Below, piece after piece: positions 3,169 through 39,852 of a stretch of DNA of 64,000 nucleotides. The DNA is taken from positions 704,415 through 768,414 of the forward strand of contig CBDFMZ010000001.1 of the NCBI GenBank assembly GCA_965249865.1, written 5' to 3'. A program made the translations under genes and the position numbers. Every line of letters starts with the position of its first letter. Positions within the stretch are counted from its first letter, which is position 1. Origin of the DNA: Acidobacteriota bacterium. GTDB lineage: Bacteria; Acidobacteriota; UBA6911; RPQK01; CBDFMZ01. The notes beneath the pieces are model-generated. The model was not told the origin of the DNA and ran no database searches. It saw only the letters and a list, made by a program, of their open reading frames with translations.

Positions 3169-3900
3169 CTAGTCGTCTCGTCCCCCAAGAAGGTCGGCCC
3201 GCATCAGGAAGTAAAGCAAGGTTAGAAGAGTAGAGATAGCTGCTGCAACGTAGGTCAGAGCGGCTGCATTTAAGACGCGATCCATCCCGGCTCGTTCCTG
3301 TGGCAGGATGATACCCTTTTCGACCACCAGCGACTTTGCACGACTTGAGGCATTAAATTCCACAGGCAAGGTTATTATTTGGAAAAGGAGCACTGCCGAA
3401 AACAGCACGGCCCCGATTCCAACTAGATTGTTCGAGCCCATCATCAGCCCGACCAACATGACGATATAACCAATACTGGAGCCGATGTTGGCCGTCGGGA
3501 CCAGTAAAGAGCGAACCCACAACGGTCCATAGTTTTGGGAATGCTGCAGGGCGTGGCCGGCTTCGTGGCTGGCTGCGCCAATGGCGGCAATCGAGGACGA
3601 GTCGTAAACGTTTTTTTATAGAGCTAAGGTCTTGGTCACGGGATTGTAATGATCAGAAAGCAGGCCGTGAGTGGAAACAATCTTGACGTCGCTAATGCCC
3701 GCTCTTTTGAGCAATTCCGCTGCCGTCTCTCGTCCGGTTAAACCTCGTATAGATCGGACGGTGGAGTATTTGTTGAAGTTGGCTTTGACCCTCCAGCTAG
3801 CCCACATAGACAGCGCTAGGGCGGGTATCATGAAAAGCAGGTAAATAGGGTCGAAGAACATGATGAGTTCCCTTTTTCTTCGGTCAAAGCCCAGGCCCAC
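3169..3900 (-). pseudogene. YugP-like neutral zinc metallopeptidase interrupted by one in-frame TAA
   Basis: Two minus-strand ORFs (3616..3900 and 3169..3522) in the same frame are separated only by stop TAA (plus-strand tta 3616-3618). Readthrough gives ...NPVTKTLAL*KNVYDSSSIAAIGAASHEAGHALQH... with intact HExxH and the membrane-anchored N-terminus typical of the family. Confidence 0.6.
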
Positions 3901-4351
3901 ATTGTATTCAGGAAAGTGGAACCTGTCTAGCAGCTAGCAGTCCCGTGGTAAAAGTAGAGTGTGTTTGTCTGCCATGCATCTGCGGTTGCTGGCCATCTAC
4001 GGGAGGAGTTGATGTCGTAGCGCTGACTCGCCGTCACGCCTCAAATCAGGAACCGTTTTCAGCTGCAACAACATGGCATGTTCTTTGTGGGCCAGGATAC
4101 TAGATTCGTCGAGGTAAAAAAATGGATGATTAGGAACCGAATTTCTGTTAGATTCTCTCGTTTGACGTTGATATTATTACTCTCGGTCTCCGATTCTAGT
4201 GAAAATCTCACCATAAAACGAATGAGGAGTTGCAAGGTTCACGTGAAAAAATGCTGTATGCGCTGCAGCGCTGATATATACTATGGCCGCGCCCGGACGG
4301 GAATCCCGGCGTAGATGTCATCCTGGTGCTAGGTAGGTCAAGGAAGGGATT

Positions 4352-28018: not shown

Positions 28019-28183
28019 TCTGCCCCCACTGCCAGGGCGCCATCTCGTCTTCCCTGGTCGCCAGGTACCTTGGCGCTCCCGGGTCCGCTTCCAAATCTCC
28101 CAAGAAGGTCGCCTCCGCCATGCGCAACATCGCCAAGGCGCAAAAGGCCCGGTGGAAGGGCCACCGGAGGAAGAAGGCGAAGC

Positions 28184-30649
28184 ATGGAATCTGTCGGCCA
28201 CGCCGACTACAATGTGAACCGTAAAAAGTGGAACTGCATCCCAAGGTTGAAGAGGTATTTTGTGTTTAAAAAGGGCCTGTTCGTTTCTGTCTTAGGTCTA
28301 CTGTCGGTTGTAGCGGCGGACCTTGTCACTGCTGCTGCACCGAGCGTGGAGATCTACACCCGAAACGGGAAAGGCACGAATCAAGATCCTGCCAAATCGA
28401 ACGCCTGGTTTAGTCCAAGGGCCAGGATCAATGGGACGGATGGGGAGCTTTTGGGCGGATATACTTTTCGCTGGAGATCCGAACCGCCCATGGTTTTTCT
28501 TGGTACGGATACGTGCTGTGCCCGGTTTCTTCTCCCAGAGGGTTGGGAAACGCTCACCGAATTCACAATTGTTCTTGAATTGGTCACTACCTCGAGGACG
28601 ACGATCCACACGCAATCCTTTTGGGCAAAGGAGGAATCCGGTGATGGAGGAGGTGAGTTGACACTCCCCTCCAACGTAGTAGCGCAGGTCAGCCCAGAAA
28701 TAGCGAGTTTAGGCGGTATCTTTTCCTTGACGGGTTCAGCTAGCGGGACAGTGGACCAATGGGCTTGGCTGGTGAGCAACACTTCGACAGACAAAGGGCT
28801 TGTCGTTAGAACGACGCAGAATGCTTCCTATCCGGCACCTCAGTATAGTACCAACCTTTACTTCACCCTGGAGGCTTCCAACAGCTTAGGGACCACTCCT
28901 AGCCTTCAGGTCAAGGTTGAGACCCGTGAGGAGAGTGATTCGAGTACGCCGAAAACGTGCAACGACTGCGCCACGGGTAATTCTCCCCAGGTGGATGCTG
29001 GTTCTATCAGTGAAACTATTCAGGGGGGACAGGTGCTCGCCCTGAATGGTAGCTGTATTGACCGTAATTCATATGGGGGGGCGGTCTCACCTGTCTCTCG
29101 AACCTTCCTGTGGGAGATCATCAATGACCAGGGATTGACGAGCTCGGGGTTGAAAATTGACAGTGCGGACGAACAAAATGCTTTCCTGGTGACGCCTTCG
29201 GTGGATGAGGATAAGCCACCTATTGAGATTCGGTTCAGCTGCATAGTCAACAGTTGTCCCTGCGAGGATTTGATTCTGGTGACTCTGAACAAGGACGCGC
29301 CAAGCCAAGTGGATGCCAGGCTGCAATACGGGGTGGGAGCCGATGGCGGCTTGATCGATGCCCCGGAGCAGCTAGTCGAGGTGTATTCTGCAGTTGAAAT
29401 CATTCTTGAAGCGAGTGGTAGCATTGGGGACAACTTGAGTGACGCGAACTTCGAGTGGACAAAGCAGGAAAATATCACCAGTGAACAGGGAGGAGTCGTC
29501 CTTGTCAAAAATGGCATGACTGCCACGCTGGTGCTTTCAGGAGGTACTGAGGGGACAATCACAGTCATAATCACGGTGACGCAAGGTAGTTCCACTTCGA
29601 GCAAATCAATAACTTTTAACGTTAGTGCTTCCACTCAACAGCCTTTAGCCCAGGTTCAGGTTTTCGTACAGGGTCGGGAAGTCCCTGAAGACGTCCCTTC
29701 GCCAATCGAAGTCGCAGAAGGTGTGTTGGTGGTCTTGGATGGTTCTGACAGTTCTTATCCGAATGGAAGTAAGCCCAATTTGACCTTCGACTGGCAGCAA
29801 GTTGGAGGAACACCCGTGAATCTGATTGGGCTCGATCAGGACCAGGCACGATTCATCGCACCGGATGCGAATGGTGAGGAGGGAATTCTTAAGTTACAGC
29901 TTACGGTGCATGATGGGGAGATCAGCTCCGAGCCGGAGTTGGTGGAGATTCGAGTGGTAATCGCACCTTTCTATTTTGCTCAAGTCGGAGTGGGTCCTGT
30001 GGATACTGAGTACGAGTTTCGGACAGTTTTGTTGTTGGTGAACAACACAGACCAGTTGGCGGAGAACGTTTTGGTTGAGTTCACCGACTGGACGGGTGTG
30101 CCTTTGGAAACGACGGTTAATGAGCAAGCTTGGGAGAATGCTCCGTTTGAAATCAATTCTCTCTCCTTTGCGCGGCTGGAGCTTCGAGGAGATACTCTTC
30201 AAGAAGGTTGGGCTTGTGTGAAGTCCGCTGTGGAATTGACCGGTTTGGTACTCTTCCAGGTCGTTGAAAGCATGTCTGGAAAGGTAGACCGGGAGGTAGC
30301 CATCTTCGAATCGCCCAGTGCCACAGGATTTGTGACCTACTTTAATCGGTTGGAACAAACAGTCGCTGCCATCGCCAATCCGGGAGAGCAAGTAGCAACG
30401 GTAAGGCTAACGATTAGCGATACAATTCTGGGCGAAGTGAAATCTAAACTTCTAGAGATTGGGTCTAGAGAGCACGTAGCCGAATTTTTGAATGAGGATT
30501 TCTTTGGGGAATTCCTTGAGGGCTTTGAACAGGGGACGCTCGTAATAGAGTCTGACTTGCCCGTGATTGTGACCATTCTGAAGACCGAAAAGGGGCTTGT
30601 GTGGTCTACGACGCCGATAGGCATCATTCGCCCGCAATTTCTTCTCTAG
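28184..30649 (+). CDS. large secreted protein with PKD/Ig-like repeat domains
   Basis: 821 aa from ATG 28184 (the listed 28070 TTG extension looks spurious); signal peptide VFKKGLFVSVLGLLSVVAA; PKD-like segment VVLDGSDSSYPNGSKPNLTFDWQQVGGTPVNL...ARFIAPD...LKLQLTVHDGE; Thr/Ser/Val-rich beta composition. Confidence 0.55.
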   Translation: MESVGHADYNVNRKKWNCIPRLKRYFVFKKGLFVSVLGLLSVVAADLVTAAAPSVEIYTRNGKGTNQDPAKSNAWFSPRARINGTDGELLGGYTFRWRSEPPMVFLGTDTCCARFLLPEGWETLTEFTIVLELVTTSRTTIHTQSFWAKEESGDGGGELTLPSNVVAQVSPEIASLGGIFSLTGSASGTVDQWAWLVSNTSTDKGLVVRTTQNASYPAPQYSTNLYFTLEASNSLGTTPSLQVKVETREESDSSTPKTCNDCATGNSPQVDAGSISETIQGGQVLALNGSCIDRNSYGGAVSPVSRTFLWEIINDQGLTSSGLKIDSADEQNAFLVTPSVDEDKPPIEIRFSCIVNSCPCEDLILVTLNKDAPSQVDARLQYGVGADGGLIDAPEQLVEVYSAVEIILEASGSIGDNLSDANFEWTKQENITSEQGGVVLVKNGMTATLVLSGGTEGTITVIITVTQGSSTSSKSITFNVSASTQQPLAQVQVFVQGREVPEDVPSPIEVAEGVLVVLDGSDSSYPNGSKPNLTFDWQQVGGTPVNLIGLDQDQARFIAPDANGEEGILKLQLTVHDGEISSEPELVEIRVVIAPFYFAQVGVGPVDTEYEFRTVLLLVNNTDQLAENVLVEFTDWTGVPLETTVNEQAWENAPFEINSLSFARLELRGDTLQEGWACVKSAVELTGLVLFQVVESMSGKVDREVAIFESPSATGFVTYFNRLEQTVAAIANPGEQVATVRLTISDTILGEVKSKLLEIGSREHVAEFLNEDFFGEFLEGFEQGTLVIESDLPVIVTILKTEKGLVWSTTPIGIIRPQFLL

Positions 30650-30756
30650 CCGCTGATTTTTATGGCGGCTATCGCGCAGCGCATGGAGAATACCCAGCTT
30701 CGCTACAAGGATTTGGTGGCATAGTTGTGGCGACAACACCCTTCCAGGACTAAGAA

Positions 30757-33081
30757 ATGACGGACAAAAAGCGCCAAACGGACCCAAAGGAATCCGCGAC
30801 GCGGAAGAGGATCGATATTATCCTCAACAACCTCAAATGGAATACTAATGAGTCGTCCCCACATTGCAACGTCTTCACGGAGCGGGCCAAAACTTCTGAG
30901 CAGCACCGCGCACTCCGAGGACGGCACCCAGACTATGTTCTCTATCGGTCCGGGACCGACACGCCGATTGCAGTCATTGAGGCGAAACGCTCCGGTCAGA
31001 GCCTCGAAAAGGCACGCAAAAAGGCCATCCTATATTATTCCACGCCCTTGAAGGTGCAGATCGTCTTCCTGGCCGATGGGTCACTCATCGAAACCTTCGA
31101 CCGACGAAGCGGACGAGCGCTGCTCGACGATGGTGAGCCGATCACGTCATTGCTCTCAGAGAAGCAATTGCTCCGCTTTGTGGAAGAAGGACCTGAAATC
31201 CAAACCCCTCCAGTTGTCCAGCATACGAAGCAGGAATTGATCGCAGTATTTAAGGAAGCGAACGATTTGCTCCGGCGTGAGGGCCTGCGAGAGGGGATCG
31301 AACGCTTCACGGAGTTCTCCAACCTTCTGTTCCTGAAACTCATCAATGAGATTGAGCAGGAGCGCGAGAGTCGAGGCGATCAGAGAATCTTGGAGAAGAA
31401 ATACTGTTGGGATGCCTTCTATCAACGGACGGGTGAAGATATGCTCGACTATATCAACGACACGATTTTACCCCGACTGGTCAATCGGTATAACCATAGT
31501 GGCGACGTGTTCCAGCCGAGGCTCCTAATTTCTTCCCCGAACACGCTCAAGCGAATTGTCGATAAGCTCTCGGCACTCACGTTGGTTGACACTGATTCAG
31601 ACATTAAGGGAGACGCCTTTGAGTATTTCCTGAAGAACTCGATTTCTGTAGGCAATGATCTGGGCGAATACTTTACGCCACGCCATATCGTTAGGCTCAT
31701 GGTTGATCTTGTGGACCCGCGCTTTGGTGAGCTCATCTACGATCCGGCGTGTGGAACAGGTGGTTTTCTGATTCAGGCGTTTCGACATATCAAGAACAAG
31801 GTGCGGCAGACAAAGCCGAATCTCCGGCGACTGAGAGAGCGAACTGTATACGGGCGTGAGCTGACAGGCACCGCTAAGATCGCCAAGATGAACATGATAA
31901 TTATTGGCGATGGGCACACAAACGTTGAGCAGAAGGACAGCCTGAAGCATCCGGTGAGACAAGCCTATGATGTGGTGCTCACGAACTATCCGTTTTCCCA
32001 GGACACCGAGTTTTCCAACTACTACGGGCTCACGACCGAGAGCGCAAACCCGGTGTTTTTGAAGCATGTGATTGATGCGCTCAAAAACGGAGGACGCGCC
32101 GCTGTCGTGGTGCCGGAGGGTTTACTGTTCGATGAAGGGTCTCAGTGCGAGAAGGTTCGCAGAATCCTTCTGGAGACGTGCGGCCTCGAATCGGTCATCA
32201 GCCTCCATCAGTACGCGTTTCGCCCGTATACTGGCCAGCCGACTAGCATACTCGTATTCCATAAAGGGAGTCCTACTCGCAAGGTCTGGTTTTTCGACAT
32301 TCAGGAAGATGGATTTGCCAAAACACTTAGGCTCACAGGTAGACCTACCATCAAGGAGAACGACATTCCACTACTGCGGCAATTGTGGTACGAAAAGTCC
32401 GATTCTGACAGGTCATTTTCCGTTGGGGTTGATTCAATACGCACACATGGTTATAAGCTTACAGCCGATGAGTATCGCGAGACACACGGAAAAGACGGGT
32501 GGGTGCCACTCGGAGGGAATCGTGGCCTGTGCGATCTCGTGATCGGTGGCACACCGTCTCGAAAGAAGCTTCAGTATTTTGGCGGTCCGCATCTATGGGT
32601 CAAGATAGGGGACATATCGAACGCAAACGGCCTGCCTATCACCGAGACGAATGAAACGATTACAGATGAAGGCGTCGATAAATCGAACGTGAAGCTGGTT
32701 CCAAAAGGCACGGTGTTGTTGAGTTTTAAGCTATCTGTCGGCAAGGTAGCGATTGCCGGTTCTGACCTGTATACCAATGAAGCGATTGCCGCGCTGATCC
32801 CTAAAGACAAACGCATACTCCCGAAGTATCTCTATTATTTGCTCCCAAGGCTCGATGGTCTTGGAACTCGGAAGGCCGCGAAGGGCATAACGTCTAGCAA
32901 GGCACGTTTAGCCGAAGTGCTTGTTCCGCTTCCTTCACTCCGCGTTCAGAAAAAACTTATTAAGGAAATGGACGGGCAAGAAGTCCAGATTAGGGCCTAT
33001 GAACAGAAGATTAAGCGGGCAAATGCGAGAGAGGAAACCCTCGTGAATGAACTGACACTCCCGTTGAAAGACAACGCATGA
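30757..33081 (+). CDS. single-chain Type IIG-like restriction-modification enzyme (PD-(D/E)xK nuclease + gamma-class N6-adenine MTase + HsdS-like TRD)
   Basis: 774 aa. N-terminus has HsdR_N-like nuclease motif (HPDYVLY ... IAVIEAKR). Middle has MTase motif I DPACGTGGFL and motif IV TNYPFS. C-terminal about 200 aa resemble a type I specificity-subunit target-recognition domain (..VPKGTVLLSFKLSVGKVAIAG..). Confidence 0.65.
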   Translation: MTDKKRQTDPKESATRKRIDIILNNLKWNTNESSPHCNVFTERAKTSEQHRALRGRHPDYVLYRSGTDTPIAVIEAKRSGQSLEKARKKAILYYSTPLKVQIVFLADGSLIETFDRRSGRALLDDGEPITSLLSEKQLLRFVEEGPEIQTPPVVQHTKQELIAVFKEANDLLRREGLREGIERFTEFSNLLFLKLINEIEQERESRGDQRILEKKYCWDAFYQRTGEDMLDYINDTILPRLVNRYNHSGDVFQPRLLISSPNTLKRIVDKLSALTLVDTDSDIKGDAFEYFLKNSISVGNDLGEYFTPRHIVRLMVDLVDPRFGELIYDPACGTGGFLIQAFRHIKNKVRQTKPNLRRLRERTVYGRELTGTAKIAKMNMIIIGDGHTNVEQKDSLKHPVRQAYDVVLTNYPFSQDTEFSNYYGLTTESANPVFLKHVIDALKNGGRAAVVVPEGLLFDEGSQCEKVRRILLETCGLESVISLHQYAFRPYTGQPTSILVFHKGSPTRKVWFFDIQEDGFAKTLRLTGRPTIKENDIPLLRQLWYEKSDSDRSFSVGVDSIRTHGYKLTADEYRETHGKDGWVPLGGNRGLCDLVIGGTPSRKKLQYFGGPHLWVKIGDISNANGLPITETNETITDEGVDKSNVKLVPKGTVLLSFKLSVGKVAIAGSDLYTNEAIAALIPKDKRILPKYLYYLLPRLDGLGTRKAAKGITSSKARLAEVLVPLPSLRVQKKLIKEMDGQEVQIRAYEQKIKRANAREETLVNELTLPLKDNA

Positions 33082-33374
33082 CTACGACACCTAAGCCAAA
33101 GCAGGGCGAGGTTGCGATAAAGAAACCCAAGACCGTTAAAGAGTACGTCAGAGGCGATGTTCACACCAATGGCATTGAGTCTCTATGGTCCATGCTCAAG
33201 CGCGGATATGTAGGAACCTATCACCAGATGAGCGCGAAGCACGTCCATCGGTACGTTAGAGAGTTCGCCGGTCGGCAGAACCTTCGGGAGTTCGACACCC
33301 TGACGCAGATGGGCCTCCTCGCTAAGGGACTGGACGGAAAGCTCCTCCACTACCGTGATCTGATTGCGGACTGA
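33078..33374 (+). pseudogene. IS1595-family (ISXO2-like) transposase C-terminal remnant
   Basis: From EYVRGDVHTNGIESLWSMLKRGYVGTYHQMSAKHVHRYVREFAGRQNLRE.. about 70% identical to the C-terminus of the full-length transposase at 37924..38958; the N-terminal 250 aa are missing; overlaps the stop of the upstream RM gene by 4 nt. Confidence 0.7.
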
Positions 33375-33454
33375 GGAAAACTTTGTGAAAGTCTTGTTGA
33401 TAAGGTGTTAACTTCTTGTGAATCAACTGTTTACGGACGATTTGTGTTGACGGA

Positions 33455-34303
33455 ATGAGCCAAGCTGCGTATATTCTCCACGTGCCAAAGGTGCCGTCGA
33501 TAGACCCCGTTGTTTCCACGGATTTAGGGAAGCTCTACCAAGCCGATTGCTTGGAAGTCTTGCCGGGGATACGCAGTGATTCGGTCGATGCTGTGTTTGC
33601 CGATCCTCCCTTTAATCTTCGGAAAAACTATGGCGGTCACGTGAAAGACGATAGGAGAGACTATCTCGGGTGGTGTCTCGCATGGTTGGAGGAGTGCGTT
33701 CGCATCTTGCGGCCCGGGGGGTCGGTATTTGTCTACAATCTGCCGAAATGGAACGTGCAGATTGCCGGTGCACTTGAAGGCATGGGGATGGAGTTTCGTC
33801 ATTGGATAGCCGTAGAGCAGAATAACCGCCTCCCGATCCGTGGGCGGCTGTACCCTTCGCACTACTCTCTGATCTACTACTCGAAGGGAAGCCCTAAAAC
33901 ATTTCACCATATCCGTACCCCAATAACCACGTGCCGACATTGCGGGAAGGAACTCAAAGACTATGGGGGCCACCGGAAAGCGATGCACCCGGACGGAGTG
34001 AATCTCAAAGACGTGTGGACCGACATCCCTCCTGTTCGTCATTGGAAGTTCAAGCCGACCACTCGGAACTGCAATTCTCTGAGTACCAAGCTCCTAGAAC
34101 GTGTTATTGAAATCAGCACGGAGCCGGGGGACGTTGTGCTTGATCCGTTTGGAGGAAGCGGAACGACTTACGCTGTATGCGAACAGAAGTCCCGCAAGTG
34201 GATCGGGATAGAAATAGAAGACCTTAGTTCCATCTTGGAGCGCCTGAACGGAGGGGTTTATAACCACTCCAATGATGATGTGGTGGAGTTTTGCCAGTCA
34301 TAA
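33455..34303 (+). CDS. DNA methyltransferase, beta-class (N4-cytosine or N6-adenine; DPPF motif)
   Basis: 282 aa; motif IV FADPPFNL near N-terminus and motif I LDPFGGSGTT near C-terminus (circularly permuted beta-class order). Confidence 0.8.
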   Translation: MSQAAYILHVPKVPSIDPVVSTDLGKLYQADCLEVLPGIRSDSVDAVFADPPFNLRKNYGGHVKDDRRDYLGWCLAWLEECVRILRPGGSVFVYNLPKWNVQIAGALEGMGMEFRHWIAVEQNNRLPIRGRLYPSHYSLIYYSKGSPKTFHHIRTPITTCRHCGKELKDYGGHRKAMHPDGVNLKDVWTDIPPVRHWKFKPTTRNCNSLSTKLLERVIEISTEPGDVVLDPFGGSGTTYAVCEQKSRKWIGIEIEDLSSILERLNGGVYNHSNDDVVEFCQS

Positions 34304-34821
34304 CTGAACGCCAAAGTTTCAACGGGTTTGAAGTAAAGATCCAGCGGCTTAACCTGGAAGAAGTGATCGCCGAAGTATACGAAGCGGTAGAGTCTTTCGA
34401 GCTTCGAGTTGATGAGCGGATACACGCAAACGGGACTCGGTGGATTCGTCAGCAAATCGACACCCACTTTGAACGAGTGGGAGGCTGGGAAAACACCGTT
34501 GTGGGTGGGGTGGATTGGAAGAAGTCAAACTCTCGCGGGAGTACAGTCGCCGTTGAGGTTCAAGTCTCCGGGAGAAGTGACCTGCTTGCGGTGGATGTCT
34601 TGCACCTTGGGCGGGTTCTTACCGGGGGAACTGTTGATGTCGGTTTGATTGTAGTACCTGACGATACCTTGTCAAGATTCCTAACCGACCGGACACCCAA
34701 TCTCAGAACAGCATTGAGGCACATAGACGGGGAAATGGCAGTTCAGATAGTTGCGTTCCGGCATGACGGGGCTGGACCCGCTTTGCCAAAAATGAGAACT
34801 AATCTCGGGAAGGCTCCATGA
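34291..34821 (+). CDS. putative Type II restriction endonuclease partner of upstream MTase
   Basis: 176-aa ORF overlapping the MTase stop by 13 nt; no recognisable family, assignment by context; contains acidic/lysine candidates (VEVQVSGRSD..). Confidence 0.35.
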   Translation: MPVITERQSFNGFEVKIQRLNLEEVIAEVYEAVESFELRVDERIHANGTRWIRQQIDTHFERVGGWENTVVGGVDWKKSNSRGSTVAVEVQVSGRSDLLAVDVLHLGRVLTGGTVDVGLIVVPDDTLSRFLTDRTPNLRTALRHIDGEMAVQIVAFRHDGAGPALPKMRTNLGKAP

Positions 34822-34991
34822 AAGACCGAACGAAGCCCAAACGCAAGCCTGGCCGTCCCTCCAAGCCTATCCCTAAGCTGGATGCTACGCCGGAGGAAAT
34901 AGCCAGGAGAATCTTTGAAAACGCCAAGCCCCCGGACCCGTCAATTCGAGTCAGGAACAAACCGGAGAAATTAGGAGGGTTGGCTAGTTAG
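34818..34991 (+). CDS. small basic protein (57 aa), AT-hook-like GRP motif
   Basis: MKDRTKPKRKPGRPSKPIPKLDATPEEIARRIFENAK..; ATG overlaps the upstream stop (atga); ends at the inverted-repeat junction. Confidence 0.35.
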   Translation: MKDRTKPKRKPGRPSKPIPKLDATPEEIARRIFENAKPPDPSIRVRNKPEKLGGLAS

Positions 34992-35040
34992 GTATGTAAT
35001 CCCCTTCGTTTAGGGGATTATATACTAAAGTAGCGAAGCA
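34980..35040. repeat. two IS1595-type terminal inverted repeats abutting outward-to-outward, 7-bp spacer (ttcgttt)
   Basis: 34980-35004 ttggctagttaggtatgtaatcccc (degenerate, about 17/23 match to the 38961-38989 end, same orientation) and 35012-35040 aggggattatatactaaagtagcgaagca (23/26 match to the reverse complement of 38961-38989). Confidence 0.6.
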
Positions 35041-35046
35041 CCTGAC

Positions 35047-35223
35047 TCACTTTGACTCCTTCTCAGGCATGACCTTGCGAATCCTCACAGGTTTTACCAG
35101 TGCCTGAATCGCTTCCTTGAAGGTGCCCTTGATCCGCAAGTCTTCGCGCAGTTCCGCACGGCTCGGTTGGTAGTCGTGAGAGACGATCTCGACCGTTGGA
35201 GTCTTGTCTTGCTTCTTTGTCAT
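35047..35223 (-). CDS. small hypothetical protein (58 aa) downstream of Type IIG gene
   Basis: MTKKQDKTPTVEIVSHDYQPSRAELREDLRIKGTFKEAIQALVKPVRIRKVMPEKESK; 24 bp after the Type IIG stop, same strand. Confidence 0.3.
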   Translation of the reverse strand: MTKKQDKTPTVEIVSHDYQPSRAELREDLRIKGTFKEAIQALVKPVRIRKVMPEKESK

Positions 35224-35247
35224 CACATCCTCCTCAGAGTTCGATCA

Positions 35248-37914
35248 TCATACTGACGACAGTACATGAGCGAGCGAGTCCGACACTGCATCAGCTTCCT
35301 GCCTCAATGACGTCGATCTATCCAATTGCTCTAACGCAACGTCAACGGACGCCTTCTGTTCATGCTTGTCGGGTGGATACAAAATTCTGAGTGCTTTAAT
35401 GGCCGGATAGTCCAATGCCAACCGAGACGATCCTGTAACCGCTCGATTGAATTGTGACCGGCATAAGTCGGAATTAAGAAACAGGCACAGATACTCCGGC
35501 ATGATCTCATTGTTAACTTCTATCTTTACAGAGTGTTGATTGATGTTCGCAGGCGGGAATCCTTTCTGGACCACTGCCGCGATTCCGTAGGTTCCTGTAA
35601 TCGTCAACACGACGTCTGATTCGCACAACTGCGACCTGCGCAGCGCGTCATGTGTCCTTGTTCCAATACACGGATCGTCTTCTGGGCTCCATTCCAGTCT
35701 CATCGGCTTTACGTTCTGGACCCGCACAAACTTTGGGCCGTCGTCAGGATACGATGCGCCGCGCGGAGTTGCTCCACCAGCCAGAGCGGTCTTGCTGCTC
35801 TTACGAAGCAATTCCCCGAGTGGCTTGATGAACCATGCACGCTTGGATGCCACTTCGTCCAGCGTATCCATTGTGTCGAAGTAGCGCGGATCGAAGAAGT
35901 GCGCGTCAAGTCGAAGCGTTGGATTGTGTGAGCGAAGGTCTGGCACGAGAAACGCCCGGTCCTTCCCGCGCAACTTTCCAGTAGAATCGAAATTCTCGAA
36001 CTCCTCCAGGATCTGCGGCAACTCATTGAGGTGTGGACGCTCCTTTCCTGAATCGCTATGCCCAACGTTCTTGCAAATGGCCATGAAAACATCAGCCTGG
36101 GGTTCCGATGGATCTGTCTTCTTCCGTAAGTAGATCACTGACGTCCTGACTGAGCCTTGTGCCTTGACGAACGTGTTACGCGGAAGCGAGATGACTGCAC
36201 GCAGAACAAACTTCGCCAGAATATATTCACGAAACGGTCTTGACGTTAGTGTGTTGAGGACGCTTTCGTCCATTATGGTGACTAAGCGACCCGCGCCCAG
36301 GTCAGAATCTCCACCTGTTAGTAGATCATGGTAGCGTTCGAGGAACATCACCGATGAACGCAGAGATGCCCGTGGCTTTCCATCCTCGTCTGTTGCTAGC
36401 GCATAGTCACTAAGTACCGAGAGTTCGCTTGGCTCCTTCCGTTCGTACGTCATAGAGAACGGTGGATTGCTGAGAACGCAGGAAAAAGTTGTCTTCCCGG
36501 TCGTGATCTCAGATCGCAGTTCGTCGATTTCAAGTTGCATTGGAAGCGGCAGTCCGTCCTCGGTGAGGAGGCGCTTATCTAGGGCGTCAGCAAAGTAGAT
36601 GCGACTTCCACCGTCCTTGTGCAGCAACATATTCAGGCGAGCTATACGCGCCATTTTCGGATCCTTGCCGGCATCAATGCCCCACAACATTCCTTGCCGC
36701 AGTCGCCGGAGTAGCTTTGCCTTCTCTGCCTTGGTAATCGATTTGCTTCTGAGCACCTTCCCTGTCATTTCGGCCATGGCTTCGATGAGGAAACCGCCGC
36801 TGCCGCAGCAGCCGTCCAAAACCAAATCCATCTTGGCCTTTGAGGCCCGCAATTTCGCAAGTTGCACCATGAACTTAACAACCGCGCGGGGTGTAAAAAA
36901 CTGCCCTAATGCCTTACCACGCATTGTTGCGGTGAGAAACGTTTCGAACAAGCGGCCGTTCAAATCCTCATCGACAGTGTAGAGGTCAAGGTGCTCAAGG
37001 AATAAAACCGCAGCCTTCACAGTCAGAGGCGCTAGTTGAATGCCCTCACCGGGCTCAAATATCCGCTTCTTTTCACCTTTTGCGATCTGAGCCTCAAGTT
37101 GCTTTGCGAGTTGAGCGAAAAGGATCGTATCGATGGGGTTGTCCGTCGTACTTTCCATCTGCTCAATCCAATCAACAGAAAAGCGAACCGCATCGGCTGG
37201 CACGGCCTCCGCCCCGGCTTCGATCTTGTTTTCAATCAAATACTCACGGAGGCGACGGTCTTCGTCGATCTTCACAAACATGACCTTGGCGAACTCGTAA
37301 AACGCAGAGGCGGGGCTTCGCTTTTCGGCTTTCCAGATCCTCCGATGGCAAGACTCGAAGATAGCCGGAAGCTCCACAGGTGCAACAGAGCGAAAATCGA
37401 AGGTGTTCCCCTTCGTGCCTTGACCTGTAGGGATCTCAGTCAACGAATCGCGGGCTATAGCTGAACAAAGGGCCTCAAACACGGGATGCCCATCAACAAG
37501 TTCAGCGAACGCCAGTGAATGCATCACTTTGTCGCTATCGTAGTGCTTGACGACCAACCGATGCCCGTTGATGCCCATGCAATACTGCTCGGGCTTCGGC
37601 TCCGACATTCGTCGGCGAATCACTGAGGCGTAGAGCTGCGCATCGTGGACTCCAGCTTCAGCGCTTTCATTGGGGTGTTTGGCGTCAATAATCAGAACAG
37701 GCTTGACCCTGGCGCGCACTGTATAGGCAAGGTAATCAGGAACGTATCCTCTATTCTTCTTCCTTCCCTTGCCTATTGATACCGCATCGATAGAGGCTTT
37801 GGTTTCAAGATAGTCTGCCCCGTACCCAAGATGTGCCAGTAGGGGCGCAACCAGAAACTGTTCGACATCGCTCTCGTTCCGAAGATTCTTGAGCTTGCAG
37901 AACAAATTCAACAT
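35248..37914 (-). CDS. single-chain Type IIG-like restriction-modification enzyme, second paralogue (nuclease + MTase + TRD)
   Basis: 888 aa. N-terminal PD-(D/E)xK (VPDYLAY ... VLIIDAKH), MTase motif I LDGCCGSGGFL and motif IV SNPPFS, C-terminal HsdS-like TRD; same architecture as 30757..33081 but divergent sequence. Confidence 0.65.
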   Translation of the reverse strand: MLNLFCKLKNLRNESDVEQFLVAPLLAHLGYGADYLETKASIDAVSIGKGRKKNRGYVPDYLAYTVRARVKPVLIIDAKHPNESAEAGVHDAQLYASVIRRRMSEPKPEQYCMGINGHRLVVKHYDSDKVMHSLAFAELVDGHPVFEALCSAIARDSLTEIPTGQGTKGNTFDFRSVAPVELPAIFESCHRRIWKAEKRSPASAFYEFAKVMFVKIDEDRRLREYLIENKIEAGAEAVPADAVRFSVDWIEQMESTTDNPIDTILFAQLAKQLEAQIAKGEKKRIFEPGEGIQLAPLTVKAAVLFLEHLDLYTVDEDLNGRLFETFLTATMRGKALGQFFTPRAVVKFMVQLAKLRASKAKMDLVLDGCCGSGGFLIEAMAEMTGKVLRSKSITKAEKAKLLRRLRQGMLWGIDAGKDPKMARIARLNMLLHKDGGSRIYFADALDKRLLTEDGLPLPMQLEIDELRSEITTGKTTFSCVLSNPPFSMTYERKEPSELSVLSDYALATDEDGKPRASLRSSVMFLERYHDLLTGGDSDLGAGRLVTIMDESVLNTLTSRPFREYILAKFVLRAVISLPRNTFVKAQGSVRTSVIYLRKKTDPSEPQADVFMAICKNVGHSDSGKERPHLNELPQILEEFENFDSTGKLRGKDRAFLVPDLRSHNPTLRLDAHFFDPRYFDTMDTLDEVASKRAWFIKPLGELLRKSSKTALAGGATPRGASYPDDGPKFVRVQNVKPMRLEWSPEDDPCIGTRTHDALRRSQLCESDVVLTITGTYGIAAVVQKGFPPANINQHSVKIEVNNEIMPEYLCLFLNSDLCRSQFNRAVTGSSRLALDYPAIKALRILYPPDKHEQKASVDVALEQLDRSTSLRQEADAVSDSLAHVLSSV

Positions 37915-37923
37915 GTCGATGCC

Positions 37924-38958
37924 CTAGTAGCTCCGCGCTCCCGAGTCGAGCCCATTGTCAGCAACCAGCTCTCGGTAACGCAGTCTCTTGCCGTTCATGC
38001 CGTCGCTGACAGTCTGCATCTGCTCGATGGTGTCCTGTTCGCGGACGTTGTGACGGCCAGCGAACTCCTGGACGTAGCGGTTCAGGTGCTTCGGGGAGAG
38101 CTTGTGGAACGTGCCCTTGTGCGCCCGTTTGAGCATGGACCACAGTGATTCTATGCCGTTGGTATGGACATCTCCCTTGACATACTCGGAGAGCGAGTGC
38201 TTGATGACTGCATGATCGAATGGAAGCGACTCATAGGCGGCTGCATCATCGGTGTAAACCGTAGCTCCTGGTGTGGCGTGATCCTTGACGAAACCTTGCA
38301 GCGTTTCCTTGTCGGCAAACCGAACAACCTTAGCAGCGACCTGCTTGGTAGCCCTATCCTTGGCTCCGACGACGGCGGTCTTGCCTACCGGCCCTCGTCC
38401 AGTGTCCGCCAGGGCCTTGCGCTTTGCTGTGCTCATATTCCGGCGACGACCCCCAAAATAGCTCTCGTCTACCTCGACCGGGCCACTAAACAGCGTATTG
38501 TCATCCTGTGACAAGGCGGAACGCAACCTCTGGGCAAGAAACCATGCAGACTTTTGAGTTATTTCAAGATCGCGGCTCAACTTCATGCTCGACACACTCT
38601 TCAGGTTGGTCATAATCTCGAACGTTGCGATGATCCAATCCTGATAACCGATCTTCGAGCCTTCCATCACCGTCCCAACCTTTGCGCTGAACAGCTTTCC
38701 GCATTCCTTCTCACGGCAGCGGAATGGCATGGTGGGATGCTTCGCTCCAGTCTGAACATTCAGCGACCCACACTTAGGGCAACACACGCCATTAGGCCAG
38801 CGTTGCTCAATAAACCACTTCTCCGCCGTTTCGTCATCGGGGAACATCCGCATGATCTGCTTGAGGGAGATGCCCTTGCGGAATGCCTTTCCAGGTGCCT
38901 TCTTTCTTCTCTTCTTTTCCATACTCAATATCTTACACGAGAGTAGCGGTGGCGTCAA
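37924..38958 (-). CDS. IS1595-family (ISXO2-like) transposase, full length
   Basis: 344 aa; N-terminal zinc ribbon (CPKCGSLNVQ...FRCREKECGKLF); DDE region; C-terminal HTNGIESLWSMLKR..HLNRYVQEFAGRHN typical of the ISXO2-like transposase domain. Confidence 0.8.
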   Translation of the reverse strand: MTPPLLSCKILSMEKKRRKKAPGKAFRKGISLKQIMRMFPDDETAEKWFIEQRWPNGVCCPKCGSLNVQTGAKHPTMPFRCREKECGKLFSAKVGTVMEGSKIGYQDWIIATFEIMTNLKSVSSMKLSRDLEITQKSAWFLAQRLRSALSQDDNTLFSGPVEVDESYFGGRRRNMSTAKRKALADTGRGPVGKTAVVGAKDRATKQVAAKVVRFADKETLQGFVKDHATPGATVYTDDAAAYESLPFDHAVIKHSLSEYVKGDVHTNGIESLWSMLKRAHKGTFHKLSPKHLNRYVQEFAGRHNVREQDTIEQMQTVSDGMNGKRLRYRELVADNGLDSGARSY

Positions 38959-38960
38959 GT

Positions 38961-38989
38961 ATTTTCGCTACTTTCGTATATAATCCCTC
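38961..38989. repeat. terminal inverted repeat adjacent to transposase start
   Basis: attttcgctactttcgtatataatccctc; reverse complement matches 35012-35040 at 23/26 positions. Confidence 0.65.
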
Positions 38990-39261
38990 TCCTATTCTAG
39001 GGGCATTATATAGCATAGTGCCCAGGGGAAGGAGATCACTCCAGCCAGTGCCGGAGTAAAACCCACACTGTGAGCGTCACCCCCTATCTGCTAACCTACC
39101 AGGGAGGTGGGCGGGCTGAGGTCTAAAGCTCTAACCCCTACTAAGTAACTAACTCAATGAGTACTGTGACTATGAGTAACCCTAACCTACCGCATCCTAA
39201 GACTAGAGCAACTCTATCCTACCCCTACCCACCAGATGAGTAACCCTGATCAACTTAACCC

Positions 39262-39852
39262 ATGAGCAATGCTAAGATTTCCGCCCCCACACCCACCAAA
39301 AAACTCACCCGCCAGCAATCCCTCTTCATCCGCTACTACCTCCAGTGCTTCAACGGCGCAGAGGCCGTAAGACAAGCCGGATACAGCCTCAAGGCAGCAA
39401 ATAGACAGGCCGTGCAGCTTTTGTCCATGCCTGTCGTCGTGTTTGAGATCCAGCGGCGCATGGCGGTGCTCCTAGGCAAGCTGGACATCTCGGCAGAGCG
39501 GGTCATTGCGGAAATGTGCAAGGTGGCGTTCTCAGACCTCTCGGAAGTGGCCGAATGGGGTCCGGATGGTCTAAAACTGAAAGATTCCGCCAGCCTCGAC
39601 CCCAGTGCTGCCGCATCCGTGCGCACCATTGCCGAGAAGCACACCAAGTACGGCAAGAGCCTGGCCATCCAGCTGCATGACAAGGTGAAGGCGCTGTACA
39701 CCCTGGGCAGATGGCTCAAGCTGGGCGAGGTGGAAGAGGGGCTGGGACCACGGCTGACAACGGGCATTCCACACTGTGAGGAACTGCCGGAGCAGGCAAC
39801 GAACAGGCAACAACAGGATCTGGCGGCCTCTCCTGGGGATGACCTTCCGTAG
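39262..39852 (+). CDS. phage terminase small subunit
   Basis: 196 aa; N-terminal LTRQQSLFIRYYLQCFNGAEAVRQAGYS matches the small-terminase HTH signature; immediately upstream of the large terminase. Confidence 0.7.
   Translation: MSNAKISAPTPTKKLTRQQSLFIRYYLQCFNGAEAVRQAGYSLKAANRQAVQLLSMPVVVFEIQRRMAVLLGKLDISAERVIAEMCKVAFSDLSEVAEWGPDGLKLKDSASLDPSAAASVRTIAEKHTKYGKSLAIQLHDKVKALYTLGRWLKLGEVEEGLGPRLTTGIPHCEELPEQATNRQQQDLAASPGDDLP

What the first reader, a model, noticed from the sequence alone, without database searches (positions are those of the whole stretch)
34980..38989. IS1595-family transposase units appear to carry the RM genes as passengers; two IR termini abut at 34980-35040
The full transposase (37924..38958) is flanked on its start side by an IR (38961-38989). 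The matching inverted partner lies 3.9 kb away at 35012-35040, so the IR pair encloses the 888-aa RM gene and a small ORF (a transporter-IS layout). Immediately left of that partner, after a 7-bp spacer, is a further degenerate IR copy in the opposite orientation (34980-35004). That is where the right end of a second unit would lie, one whose transposase survives only as the C-terminal remnant at 33078..33374 and whose cargo would be the MTase/nuclease pair. This is direct evidence that IS1595-type elements mobilise defence genes.
Basis: seen in the sequence. Interest (0 to 1): 0.65.

Follow-up and report, generated by a model that had tools for sequence, protein, structure and literature searches.

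The report
RM-carrying IS1595 transposons stacked in prophage
A jumping gene of the IS1595 family sits in a prophage with a complete restriction-modification gene inside its ends, next to the wreck of a second such element; the layout is real, but it is a known kind of element (a "transporter IS").

Summary
35013-35040 and 38961-38988 are true terminal inverted repeats (23/24 identical). A weight matrix built only from IR ends of other genomes scores them 32.9 and 36.9 bits. The best shuffle reaches 13.7.

Unit 1 (35013-38988, 3976 bp) is a complete transporter IS: IRL, intact DDE transposase, an 888-aa nuclease-methylase-specificity fusion, a 59-aa ORF and IRR. The 59-aa ORF is a conserved part of the element, not cargo.

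Unit 2 (33132-35004) is a 5'-truncated sibling carrying a methylase and a BglII-like nuclease. An intact homologous element elsewhere (L088) has perfect IRs and an 8-bp target duplication.

In 48 related elements plus L088, 29 have perfect 8-bp duplications around 1.2-7.9 kb units. Same-genome copies with RM cargo are 99.9% identical exactly tip to tip. A 99.45% identical copy of unit 1's cargo end lies in unrelated DNA. The cargo ORF alone is 98.8% identical on a small plasmid.

Unit 1 has no target duplication in the window, and no empty site was found.

This is a new member of a known kind (Siguier 2009; Furuta 2010). The abutting ends remain unexplained.

The parts
35013..38988 (-). Unit 1: complete IS1595-family transporter IS, 3976 bp (IRL, transposase, RM gene, small ORF, IRR).
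   Evidence: IR pair. Conserved end modules with a variable middle. The boundary at the IRR tip is confirmed by a second copy, L091.
38961..38988 (-). IRL of unit 1 (AGGGATTATATACGAAAGTAGCGAAAAT read inward).
   Evidence: PWM score 36.9 bits. 23/24 identical to IRR.
38930..38958 (-). Promoter-like site TTGACG-17-TAAGAT just inside IRL, upstream of the transposase ATG.
   Evidence: Consensus scan. Function is inferred only.
37924..38922 (-). Transposase, 332 aa from the ATG (the mechanical ORF runs from a TTG at 38958). Zinc ribbon plus DDE domain, apparently intact.
   Evidence: PF12762 and PF12760. NCBIfam transpos_IS1595. D164, D237, E270, K277 and C60, C63, C81 are invariant in 32 relatives. 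Up to 84% identical to relatives.
35248..37914 (-). Cargo: 888-aa single-chain restriction-modification enzyme. It has an N-terminal PD..DAK nuclease motif, a gamma-class N6-adenine methylase (DGCCGSGGF, NPPF) and one HsdS-like specificity domain. Its start codon is 10 bp after the transposase stop.
   Evidence: (best PDB match RM.BsaXI). Some homologues carry PF04313. It is 98.8% nt identical as an ORF-sized block on plasmid-like L092.
35047..35226 (-). 59-aa ORF conserved in this IS lineage (motif SYQPSxAELxEDLR..ATFEEAxKAL..PV). Part of the element, not cargo. Function unknown.
   Evidence: Homologues lie next to IRR, or directly after the transposase, in 26 elements. At least 797 database clusters, none with a Pfam domain among the 120 listed. 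No fold match.
35013..35040 (+). IRR of unit 1 (GGGGATTATATACTAAAGTAGCGAAGCA read inward).
   Evidence: PWM score 32.9 bits. In L091 similarity to the window ends at this tip.
35005..35012 (.). 8-bp spacer TTCGTTTA between the tips of unit 2 and unit 1. It has the length and composition of a target-site duplication.
   Evidence: Read directly from the sequence. Compare duplications such as AAACGAAT and TAACGAAA.
34977..35004 (-). IRR of unit 2 (GGGGATTACATACCTAACTAGCCAACCC read inward), degenerate.
   Evidence: PWM score 19.3 bits against a shuffle maximum of 13.7.
34818..34991 (+). 57-aa ORF of unit 2, in the position of the conserved small ORF. Homology is not established.
   Evidence: tblastn E=0.004 to one family member. 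Profile comparison not significant. BLASTP not significant.
34291..34821 (+). Cargo of unit 2: 176-aa BglII/BamHI-like type II restriction endonuclease.
   Evidence: Homologues carry PF09195 and PF02923. The same gene lies in the intact element L088.
33455..34303 (+). Cargo of unit 2: 282-aa N4/N6 DNA methyltransferase, overlapping the nuclease gene by 13 nt.
   Evidence: PF01555 at 2e-40. PADLOC MTase_II at 3e-97.
33132..33374 (+). Transposase remnant of unit 2 (last ~80 residues; the ORF runs 33078-33374). IRL and about 237 codons are deleted.
   Evidence: tblastn homology starts sharply at 33132. PF12762 positions 104-153 of 153.
39001..39028 (+). Fourth IR-like end (GGGCATTATATAGCATAGTGCCCAGGGG), pointing towards terS. 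It is a solo IR with no transposase fragment beside it.
   Evidence: PWM score 19.9 bits. No transposase homology to its right.
38989..39000 (.). 12-bp spacer CTCCTATTCTAG between unit 1's IRL tip and the solo IR.
   Evidence: Read directly from the sequence.

Best explanation
The stretch 33132-39028 holds three insertions of one IS1595-family lineage. They lie between the replication genes and the small terminase gene of a chromosomal prophage-like region.

Unit 1 (35013-38988) is a complete transporter IS. A DDE transposase with an N-terminal zinc ribbon is expressed from a promoter just inside IRL. It would bind the ~25-bp terminal inverted repeats and move everything between them, duplicating an AT-rich 8-bp target.

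Between the transposase stop and the ribosome-binding site of a conserved 59-aa ORF lies an exchangeable cargo slot. In unit 1 the slot holds a single-chain nuclease-methylase-specificity enzyme. The transposase, cargo and 59-aa ORF genes lie on one strand, 10 and 21 bp apart, and are probably co-transcribed.

Unit 2 (33132-35004) is a dead sibling. It has lost IRL and two thirds of its transposase but keeps a methylase and BglII-like nuclease pair and a degenerate IRR. 39001-39028 is a solo IR.

Shown: the anatomy, the family assignment, the mobility of such units with RM cargo in relatives, and a second copy of unit 1's cargo end elsewhere.

Inferred: transposition chemistry, co-transcription, RM activity, and the order of events (units 2 and 3 older, unit 1 recent).

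Unit 1's missing target duplication is best explained by a later rearrangement, for example recombination between two copies.
For: - IRs significant, and scored with a matrix independent of the window.
- Transposase domains and invariant D164/D237/E270/K277.
- The same IRs bound elements of 1.2-7.9 kb in relatives, 29 of them with perfect 8-bp duplications that are 83% AT.
- Same-genome copies with RM cargo are identical only between the IR tips.
- Cargo among 78 passenger ORFs: 11 N6_N4 methylases, 2 C5, 1 D12, 1 N6_Mtase, 7 HNH, NotI-like and Eco47II-like nucleases.
- L013 has homologous cargo in the same slot, with a duplication.
- End modules are conserved at 68-77% nt while the middle is variable.
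- L091 is a 99.45% identical second copy whose similarity stops at the IRR tip.
- L092 holds the cargo ORF alone at 98.8% identity on a plasmid-like circle.
- L088 is an intact counterpart of unit 2.
- L012/L042 have swapped flanks, which shows that recombination between copies erases duplications in this lineage.
Against: - Unit 1 has no target duplication: TTCGTTTA on one side and CTCCTATT on the other, 4/8 matches.
- Only one copy of unit 1 is in the window, and the host genome is not available.
- No close relative of the phage, and hence no empty site, was found.
- L091 shows only one end of the second copy.
- Homology of unit 2's 57-aa ORF to the conserved small ORF is not established.
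- No enzymatic activity was tested.
Confidence: 0.85

Rival explanations
1. The transposase belongs to a plain ~1.1-1.4 kb IS, and the 888-aa gene is merely a neighbour. On this view the IR at 35013-35040 is a solo end of another, deleted copy, so the RM gene is trapped between ends of two different elements, as in a composite or pseudo-composite arrangement.
For: Elements of 1.35-1.39 kb without cargo exist (L022, L028). Unit 1 lacks a target duplication. Solo IRs do occur here, at 39001-39028.
Against: No IR-like sequence lies between the transposase stop and the RM start, a 10-bp gap, and the PWM finds none inside unit 1. The conserved small ORF plus IRR module sits at the far end, exactly as in relatives. 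L091 carries the same RM gene, small ORF and IRR block in other DNA. L013 has homologous cargo within a unit bounded by a duplication. The short elements are deletion derivatives that retain methylase start codons.
Confidence: 0.07
2. The two palindromic sites (34977-35040 and 38961-39028) are host or phage regulatory elements, such as bidirectional terminators, operators or recombination sites. On this view they flank an RM 'moron', and their resemblance to IS ends is incidental.
For: The left site folds as a strong hairpin in single-stranded DNA (-17 kcal/mol, z = -5.7). Both sites lie in intergenic DNA just upstream of terS.
Against: The right site does not fold better than shuffles (z = -1.6). 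No T-run terminators were detected at either site. The arms match a matrix derived from IS ends in unrelated genomes. In about 150 ends elsewhere the IR is not palindromic with its flank. In L091 the same IRR has no outer arm.
Confidence: 0.03
3. The abutting ends are not a coincidence. Either elements of this lineage insert preferentially at the tip of a resident end, or they re-use the resident's own duplicated 8-bp target. RM-carrying units would then stack tail-to-tail or head-to-head and build a defence cluster.
For: Both tips of unit 1 abut another IR, at 8 and 12 bp. The 8-bp spacer equals the duplication length. L078 shows an element whose 8-bp target, duplicated 7/8, lies directly against a solo IR. 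Chance adjacency in genomes of several Mb is very unlikely (my estimate, not computed).
Against: Only 1 of 96 other flanks shows this, and 0 of 153 hits at 14 bits or more. The right spacer is 12 bp, not 8. Unit 1 has no duplication. Survival of insertions only in a short permissive, AT-rich intergenic patch could give the same picture.
Confidence: 0.25

Closest known systems
Transporter IS (tIS) of the IS1595 family (Siguier, Gagnevin and Chandler 2009, as cited in PMC3129680 and PMC11891212).
   Same: One DDE transposase with a zinc ribbon, short terminal IRs, an 8-bp target duplication, and passenger genes unrelated to transposition carried inside the IRs.
   Different: The closest annotated plasmid-borne IS1595 transposases are at most 37% identical. 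This lineage has a conserved 59-aa second ORF at the IRR end and a defined cargo slot, and DNA methylases or RM systems dominate its cargo. I recall that the IR tip GGnnATTAT fits the ISNwi1/ISNwi1+ subgroup of ISfinder. That is from memory and was not tested.
The Neisseria gonorrhoeae NCCP11945 unit with 26-bp IRs and an 8-bp duplication, carrying a Type IIG RM homologue, an S-subunit homologue and a COG3677 transposase-like gene (Furuta, Abe and Kobayashi 2010, PMC2853133).
   Same: An RM gene of the fused nuclease-methylase type lies inside a small IR-bounded unit together with a transposase-like gene. Insertion makes an 8-bp duplication.
   Different: There the transposase looks inactivated and the IIG gene truncated. 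Here the transposase is intact, the RM gene is full length, and many sister elements with other RM systems show recent transposition.
Defence-carrying transposons such as Tn7-like elements with defence cargo (from general knowledge; no paper was read here).
   Same: Transposons act as vehicles for anti-phage systems.
   Different: Those elements are tens of kb long, use several transposition proteins and target specific sites. Here the vehicle is a 1.3-kb IS backbone with a single small cargo slot.
IR-targeted insertion of IS30 and IS911 (from general knowledge; not tested here).
   Same: Ends of two elements abut, separated by a few base pairs.
   Different: This is not known for IS1595. Here the abutting ends belong to diverged elements, and the spacers are 8 and 12 bp.

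Membership tests
IS1595 family (ISfinder) | DDE transposase with the ISXO2-like catalytic domain and an N-terminal zinc ribbon. | tested here: met
   PF12762 at 1.2e-38 covering 3-153 of 153, and PF12760 at 1e-7. NCBIfam NF033547 at 176 bits against a cutoff of 75. D164, D237, E270, K277 and three Cys are invariant in 32 relatives.
IS1595 family (ISfinder) | Short terminal inverted repeats at both ends of the element. | tested here: met
   23/24 identical. PWM scores 36.9 and 32.9 bits. The IR is conserved in about 60 related loci.
IS1595 family (ISfinder) | 8-bp target-site duplication, tested on the lineage. | tested here: met
   29 perfect 8-bp duplications, 83% AT, around elements with 57-84% identical transposases.
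IS1595 family (ISfinder) | 8-bp target-site duplication, tested on the window's own copy. | tested here: inconclusive
   Flanks are TTCGTTTA and CTCCTATT, 4/8 matches. A duplication is a footprint of insertion, not a part of the element. 20 of 48 relatives also lack a perfect one, and L012/L042 show flank exchange by recombination.
Transporter IS (tIS) | Passenger gene(s) unrelated to transposition located inside the IRs of an otherwise IS-like element. | tested here: met
   The 888-aa RM gene lies between the transposase and the small ORF plus IRR module.
Transporter IS (tIS) | The whole unit, cargo included, moves. | tested here: met
   For relatives: identical copies tip to tip at different duplicated targets (L024/25 and L068/69). 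For unit 1 itself: L091 shows the cargo, small ORF and IRR at 99.45% identity in unrelated DNA, but only one end is visible.
ISNwi1/ISNwi1+ subgroup of IS1595 | IR tip consensus and transposase clade of the subgroup. | not testable with these tools
   No ISfinder reference sequences are held here. The fit of GGGGATTAT to the subgroup consensus is recalled from memory only. A text search for the consensus found nothing.
Type IIG-like (fused R-M-S) restriction-modification enzyme: the 888-aa cargo | Nuclease, methylase and specificity domains in one polypeptide. | tested here: met
   PDY..IIDAK motif, DGCCGSGGF and NPPF. N6_Mtase. HsdS-like region 662-876. PADLOC MTase_II profile covers residues 51-830. 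Some homologues carry PF04313. Best PDB match is RM.BsaXI.
Type IIG-like (fused R-M-S) restriction-modification enzyme: the 888-aa cargo | Cleavage and methylation activity at a defined recognition site. | not testable with these tools
   This needs a methylome or biochemistry.
Type II RM system: cargo of unit 2 | A separate methylase and a cognate endonuclease in one operon. | tested here: met
   PF01555 methylase. Homologues of the 176-aa ORF carry PF09195 (BglII) and PF02923 (BamHI). The genes overlap by 13 nt. The same pair occurs in L088, L089 and L090.
Composite transposon | Two complete IS copies flanking the cargo. | tested here: not met
   There is only one complete transposase and one remnant. 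The remnant belongs to a different unit that faces unit 1 tail-to-tail.
IS200/IS605-type element with hairpin ends | Subterminal hairpins and a Y1 or TnpB protein. | tested here: not met
   The hairpin arises only from two abutting IRs. It is absent at other copies, and the transposase is a DDE enzyme.

The most novel reading that the evidence does not exclude
This IS1595 lineage is widespread in Acidobacteriota, Bryobacterales and alphaproteobacterial MAGs. It may be a specialised vehicle for DNA methylases and RM systems. It has a fixed cargo slot between the transposase stop and a conserved, uncharacterised 59-aa protein. Its members may insert preferentially at the tips of resident copies, or re-use their duplicated targets. 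RM cassettes would then stack into a defence cluster, here inside a prophage.
Probability: 0.25. Interest if true: 0.55.

Novelty: new member of a known kind. Interest (0 to 1): 0.4.

Why it matters
The locus shows, with tip-to-tip evidence from many genomes, that a minimal one-transposase element can carry complete restriction-modification systems between chromosomes, plasmids and a prophage. The same 888-aa gene is 98.8% identical on a small plasmid, and 99.45% identical inside a second copy of the element.

That gives a concrete route for the fast turnover of RM systems in uncultivated Acidobacteriota-type bacteria. It also shows how a prophage can acquire them.

Three specific questions follow. 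What does the conserved 59-aa protein do? How is an ORF-sized cassette swapped into the cargo slot? Are resident ends preferred targets?

The general principle is already published: transporter IS of the IS1595 family, and RM genes in small IR-bounded units with 8-bp duplications. The result is therefore confirmatory rather than surprising.

Tried and rejected
- **Hairpin-ended element.** I first suspected an IS200/IS605-like element or a terminator, because each site is a palindrome. I rejected this: the palindrome is two abutting IRs, it is absent at other copies, and only one site folds well.
- **Close relatives of the phage, to find an empty site.** None turned up in the phage collection, viral contigs or metagenome contigs. 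The terS, 888-aa and 332-aa transposase proteins are not on record as exact sequences.
- **Locating the host contig.** I tried through the identical 176-aa protein (P0001). It is known only to lie on a 1.40-Mb contig, with no accession or DNA returned.
- **Homology of unit 2's 57-aa ORF to the conserved small ORF.** hhalign gave 8% probability, BLASTP E=0.86, and one tblastn hit reached E=0.004. This is unresolved.
- **Function of the 59-aa ORF.** No hit in Pfam, NCBIfam, PADLOC or PHROGs. The AlphaFold model (pLDDT 78, beta-alpha-alpha-beta) has no PDB match better than E=4.9.
- **Subgroup assignment within IS1595.** No reference is available. The text search and two paper look-ups failed. 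Plasmid relatives are at most 37% identical and are annotated only as 'IS1595 family transposase'.
- **A larger unit including the 774-aa and 859-aa genes.** No IR lies upstream; the PWM finds nothing above chance.
- **Tandem repeats upstream of terS.** TRF finds none.
Full report
**1. The observation**

- Arms 35014-35037 and 38964-38987 are 24 nt and 96% complementary.
- The pattern occurs only at these two places in the 64-kb window, and in none of 100 dinucleotide-preserving shuffles.
- The ORF between them at 37924-38958 (- strand) is an IS1595-family transposase. It matches Pfam DDE_Tnp_IS1595 at 1e-38 over the full domain, plus Zn_ribbon_IS1595. It matches NCBIfam transpos_IS1595 at 176 bits against a cutoff of 75.
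- The 98-aa ORF at 33078-33374 matches only the last third of that domain. tblastn shows its homology starting abruptly at 33132, about residue 238 of roughly 326.

**2. The IR is the terminus of a whole lineage**

A scan of one genome per species returned 80 loci with transposases 57-84% identical to the window's. They come mostly from long-read MAGs of Acidobacteriota, Bryobacterales and Alphaproteobacteria.
- In nearly all of them the same sequence, GGGGATTATATACGAAAGTGSCGAA, lies in inverted orientation on both sides of the transposase. One copy is about 65 bp upstream in most elements. The other lies 0.3 to 7 kb downstream of the transposase stop.
- Taking the four-G tip as the end, 28 of 48 elements have perfect 8-bp direct repeats flanking the whole IR-to-IR unit. 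Unit lengths run from 1219 to 7939 bp. With L088 that makes 29, and the duplicated targets are 83% A+T.
- Copies in one genome are 99.6-100% identical exactly from tip to tip and unrelated beyond (L024/L025, L068/L069, L006/L007, L012/L042, L033/L034).

These are the signatures of an active IS1595-type element that moves everything between its IRs.

**3. Four ends in the window, not three**

I built a 28-column weight matrix from the 59 distinct ends of the other loci and scanned the window.
- The four best scores are 36.9 bits (38961-38988), 32.9 (35013-35040), 19.9 (39001-39028) and 19.3 (34977-35004).
- The fifth best is 5.3, and the best score in 50 shuffled windows is 13.7.
There is also a fourth, abutting the transposase-side end.
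- The spacers are 8 bp (35005-35012, TTCGTTTA) and 12 bp (38989-39000).
- No transposase fragment lies to the right of 39028, so that end is a solo IR.

**4. Anatomy of unit 1 (35013-38988, 3976 bp, read on the - strand)**

In order the unit contains:
- IRL;
- a promoter-like TTGACG-17-TAAGAT;
- the transposase, 332 aa from the ATG at 38922;
- a 10-bp gap;
- the 888-aa gene;
- a 21-bp gap containing GAGGAGG;
- a 59-aa ORF;
- 6 bp;
- IRR.

The transposase keeps every residue that is invariant in 32 relatives. These include D164, D237, E270 and K277, and the zinc-ribbon cysteines.

The 888-aa protein has four recognisable parts:
- an N-terminal PDY...IIDAK nuclease motif;
- the methylase motifs DGCCGSGGF and NPPF, in a Pfam N6_Mtase domain;
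- an HsdS-like specificity region at 662-876;
- a best solved relative in RM.BsaXI.

Some homologues carry the HSDR_N nuclease domain PF04313. I read the protein as a single-chain, Type IIG-like restriction-modification enzyme. Its activity was not tested.

**5. The small ORF is not cargo**

The 59-aa protein has homologues in 26 of the related elements.
- They usually lie 30-45 bp from IRR. In the cargo-less forms they lie directly after the transposase.
- A profile search finds at least 797 database clusters. None of the 120 listed has a Pfam domain, and the few source names among them are only 'hypothetical protein'.
- DNA comparison shows unit 1 to be modular. IRL plus transposase (positions 1-1056) and small ORF plus IRR (about 3790-3976) are 68-77% identical to relatives. 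The middle is unrelated.
- Cargo therefore sits in a slot between the transposase stop and the small ORF. In many relatives the first cargo gene overlaps the transposase stop codon.
- The function of the small protein is unknown. It gives no family hit. An AlphaFold model at pLDDT 78 has no structural match.

**6. What the lineage carries**

I took 78 distinct non-transposase ORFs of at least 90 aa inside the related elements and scanned them against Pfam.
- 11 are N6_N4 methylases, 2 are C5 methylases, 1 is a D12 methylase and 1 is an N6_Mtase.
- 7 carry HNH domains. In the one checked individually (L024), the HNH domain is fused to a methylase.
- One is a NotI-like and one an Eco47II-like endonuclease.

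Units with perfect duplications include:
- L009, a D12 methylase plus a NotI-like nuclease;
- L068/L069, a methylase plus an Eco47II-like nuclease;
- L024/L025, a methylase plus a methylase-HNH fusion;
- L013, a 906-aa protein 40% identical to the window's 888-aa protein, in the same slot.

The two shortest intact elements (L022 and L028, about 1.35 kb) still carry the first codons of the methylase gene after the transposase stop. They are deletion derivatives, not ancestors.

**7. Direct evidence on unit 1 itself**

Two database contigs bear on it.
- L091 is a 7-kb ENA contig that is 99.45% identical to window 36822-35006. That stretch covers the 3' half of the 888-aa gene, the small ORF and IRR. 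Beyond the IRR tip it continues into unrelated DNA, a PAS/histidine-kinase gene. Unit 1, with this cargo, therefore exists at a second place, and its boundary is the IRR tip. Only this one end is visible.
- L092 is a circular element of about 7.5 kb with NikA-like and RepA_C genes. It is 98.8% identical to window 37909-35236, which is just the 888-aa ORF. Similarity runs from its fourth or fifth codon to 12 nt past the stop. L092 has no IR and no transposase. The cargo is thus an ORF-sized cassette recently shared with a small plasmid. The direction of transfer is unknown.

**8. Unit 2**

The 176-aa ORF gave no direct family hit. Its homologues, however, carry the BglII and BamHI endonuclease domains.

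One homologue, 72% identical, lies in L088. There it sits inside an intact element with 25/25 IRs, the duplication CAAATATA, and the order transposase, methylase, nuclease, 59-aa ORF. The RM pair of L088 is 69% nt identical to the window's.

It is a transporter IS that has lost IRL and about 237 codons of its transposase. It keeps its Type II RM pair and a degenerate IRR.

Its terminal 57-aa ORF is in the right place, but its homology to the small-ORF family is not established.

**9. What is not explained**

*Missing duplication.* Unit 1 has no target duplication: TTCGTTTA against CTCCTATT. Unit 1 is 99.45% identical to L091, so decay cannot explain four mismatches in eight. A later rearrangement is more likely. 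L012 and L042 carry each other's flanks (TATTTTTT and AATACAAT), so recombination between copies does erase duplications in this lineage. In all, 20 of 48 relatives lack a perfect duplication.

*Abutting ends.* Both tips of unit 1 abut another IR.
- Elsewhere this is rare: 0 of 153 matrix hits at 14 bits or more, and 1 of 96 flanks.
- The one case, L078, is instructive. The element's 8-bp target (duplicated 7/8) lies directly against a solo IR, just as the 8-bp spacer does at 35005-35012.
- Re-use of a resident element's own duplicated target, or capture by transposase bound to a resident end, would give exactly this spacing.
- Survival of insertions only in a short permissive, AT-rich intergenic patch upstream of terS is the dull alternative.
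- I cannot decide between these.

**10. Context**

- Window 1-25.4 kb holds ordinary chromosomal genes: aldehyde dehydrogenase, DUF1592-family proteins, a symporter and a beta-lactamase-family protein.
- A replication-initiator gene at 26180, then terS at 39262 and the 489-aa ORF at 40107 that I take to be the large terminase (distant relatives only; no family scan), mark a prophage-like region.
- The identical 176-aa protein is recorded on a 1.40-Mb contig, so the region is chromosomal.
- Between the replication genes and terS lie three RM systems in a row: the 774-aa nuclease-methylase-specificity fusion at 30757-33081, unit 2's pair, and unit 1's enzyme.

**11. Comparison with what is known**

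- The term transporter IS was coined for IS1595-family elements with passenger genes by Siguier et al. 2009, as cited in PMC3129680 and PMC11891212.
- Furuta et al. 2010 (PMC2853133) described a Neisseria unit with 26-bp IRs and an 8-bp duplication. It holds a Type IIG RM homologue and a COG3677 transposase-like gene. They cite Siguier 2009 among reports of RM and solitary methylase genes flanked by IS elements.
- The present case is a new member of that kind.
- I found four things not described in the held literature: the conserved small ORF, the fixed cargo slot, the predominance of methylase and RM cargo in this lineage, and the stacked ends.

**12. Verdict**

Novelty is modest. Interest is 0.4.

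Noticed in passing
It points towards terS and abuts unit 1's IRL with a 12-bp spacer. It is a solo IR with no transposase fragment beside it.
   Followed up: yes
window 35047-35226 (-) and 26 related elements: The 59-aa ORF belongs to a large uncharacterised family: at least 797 clusters, none of the 120 listed with a Pfam domain, motif SYQPSxAELxEDLR..ATFEEAxKAL..PV. It is always at the IRR end of these IS1595 elements. The predicted beta-alpha-alpha-beta fold has no PDB match.
   Followed up: partly
L092 3485-6158 (ENA ERZ28669063 ctg101062): A circular plasmid-like contig of about 7.5 kb (NikA-like and RepA_C genes, 1.5-kb terminal redundancy). It carries the 888-aa gene at 98.8% nt identity with no IR or transposase. 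Similarity covers only the ORF, from codon 4-5 to 12 nt past the stop.
   Followed up: yes
L091 1-1817 (ENA ERZ25067264 ctg511094): A second copy of unit 1's cargo 3' half, small ORF and IRR at 99.45% identity, next to a PAS/histidine-kinase gene and Mu-like transposition genes. The contig starts inside the RM gene, so the other end is unseen.
   Followed up: yes
L022 and L028 (elements of 1389 and 1351 bp): The 'plain' short IS forms keep the first codons of the methylase gene (MALNVRNRT...) after the transposase stop. They are therefore secondary deletion derivatives of methylase-carrying elements.
   Followed up: partly
L012 and L042 (same Bryobacterales MAG): Two 100% identical 2967-bp elements carry each other's flanking 8-mers (TATTTTTT and AATACAAT). 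This implies reciprocal recombination between the copies.
   Followed up: partly
L078 11009-11071: The only other abutting-IR case among 96 flanks: ...TATATAATCCCC-TTATTTT-GGGAATTATATACC..., where the second IR is solo. The element's target (duplicated 7/8) lies directly against it.
   Followed up: partly
window 28070-33081: Upstream of the transposase remnant lie two genes. One is a third RM enzyme of 774 aa (HSDR_N-like N-terminus, N6 methylase, HsdS-like domain; partial match to MADS MAD2). The other is an 859-aa protein with weak similarity to the C-terminal regions of M36 metallopeptidases. No IR bounds them. The 774-aa stop codon (33079-33081) overlaps the start of the 33078-33374 ORF, about 50 bp before transposase homology begins at 33132.
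   Followed up: partly
window 1-26180: The first ~25 kb are ordinary chromosomal genes. The phage-like region seems to start between 25418 and 26180 with a replication-initiator gene. No integrase was seen on that side.
   Followed up: no
window 39172-39254: Three imperfect 19-nt repeats (ATGAGTAACCCTAACCTAC-like) at 32-bp spacing, just upstream of terS. They might be a packaging or regulatory site. TRF does not call them.
   Followed up: no
L038 6847-14785: The largest related element is 7.9 kb with a perfect duplication (CTTGAGAA). It holds nine ORFs of 120-511 aa between its IRs; I did not annotate them individually.
   Followed up: no
L089 and L090 (ENA ERZ19489113): The same methylase plus BglII-like nuclease pair as in unit 2 also occurs without any IS1595 transposase or IR, between housekeeping genes. 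The pair therefore exists both as IS cargo and as a fixed chromosomal RM system.
   Followed up: partly
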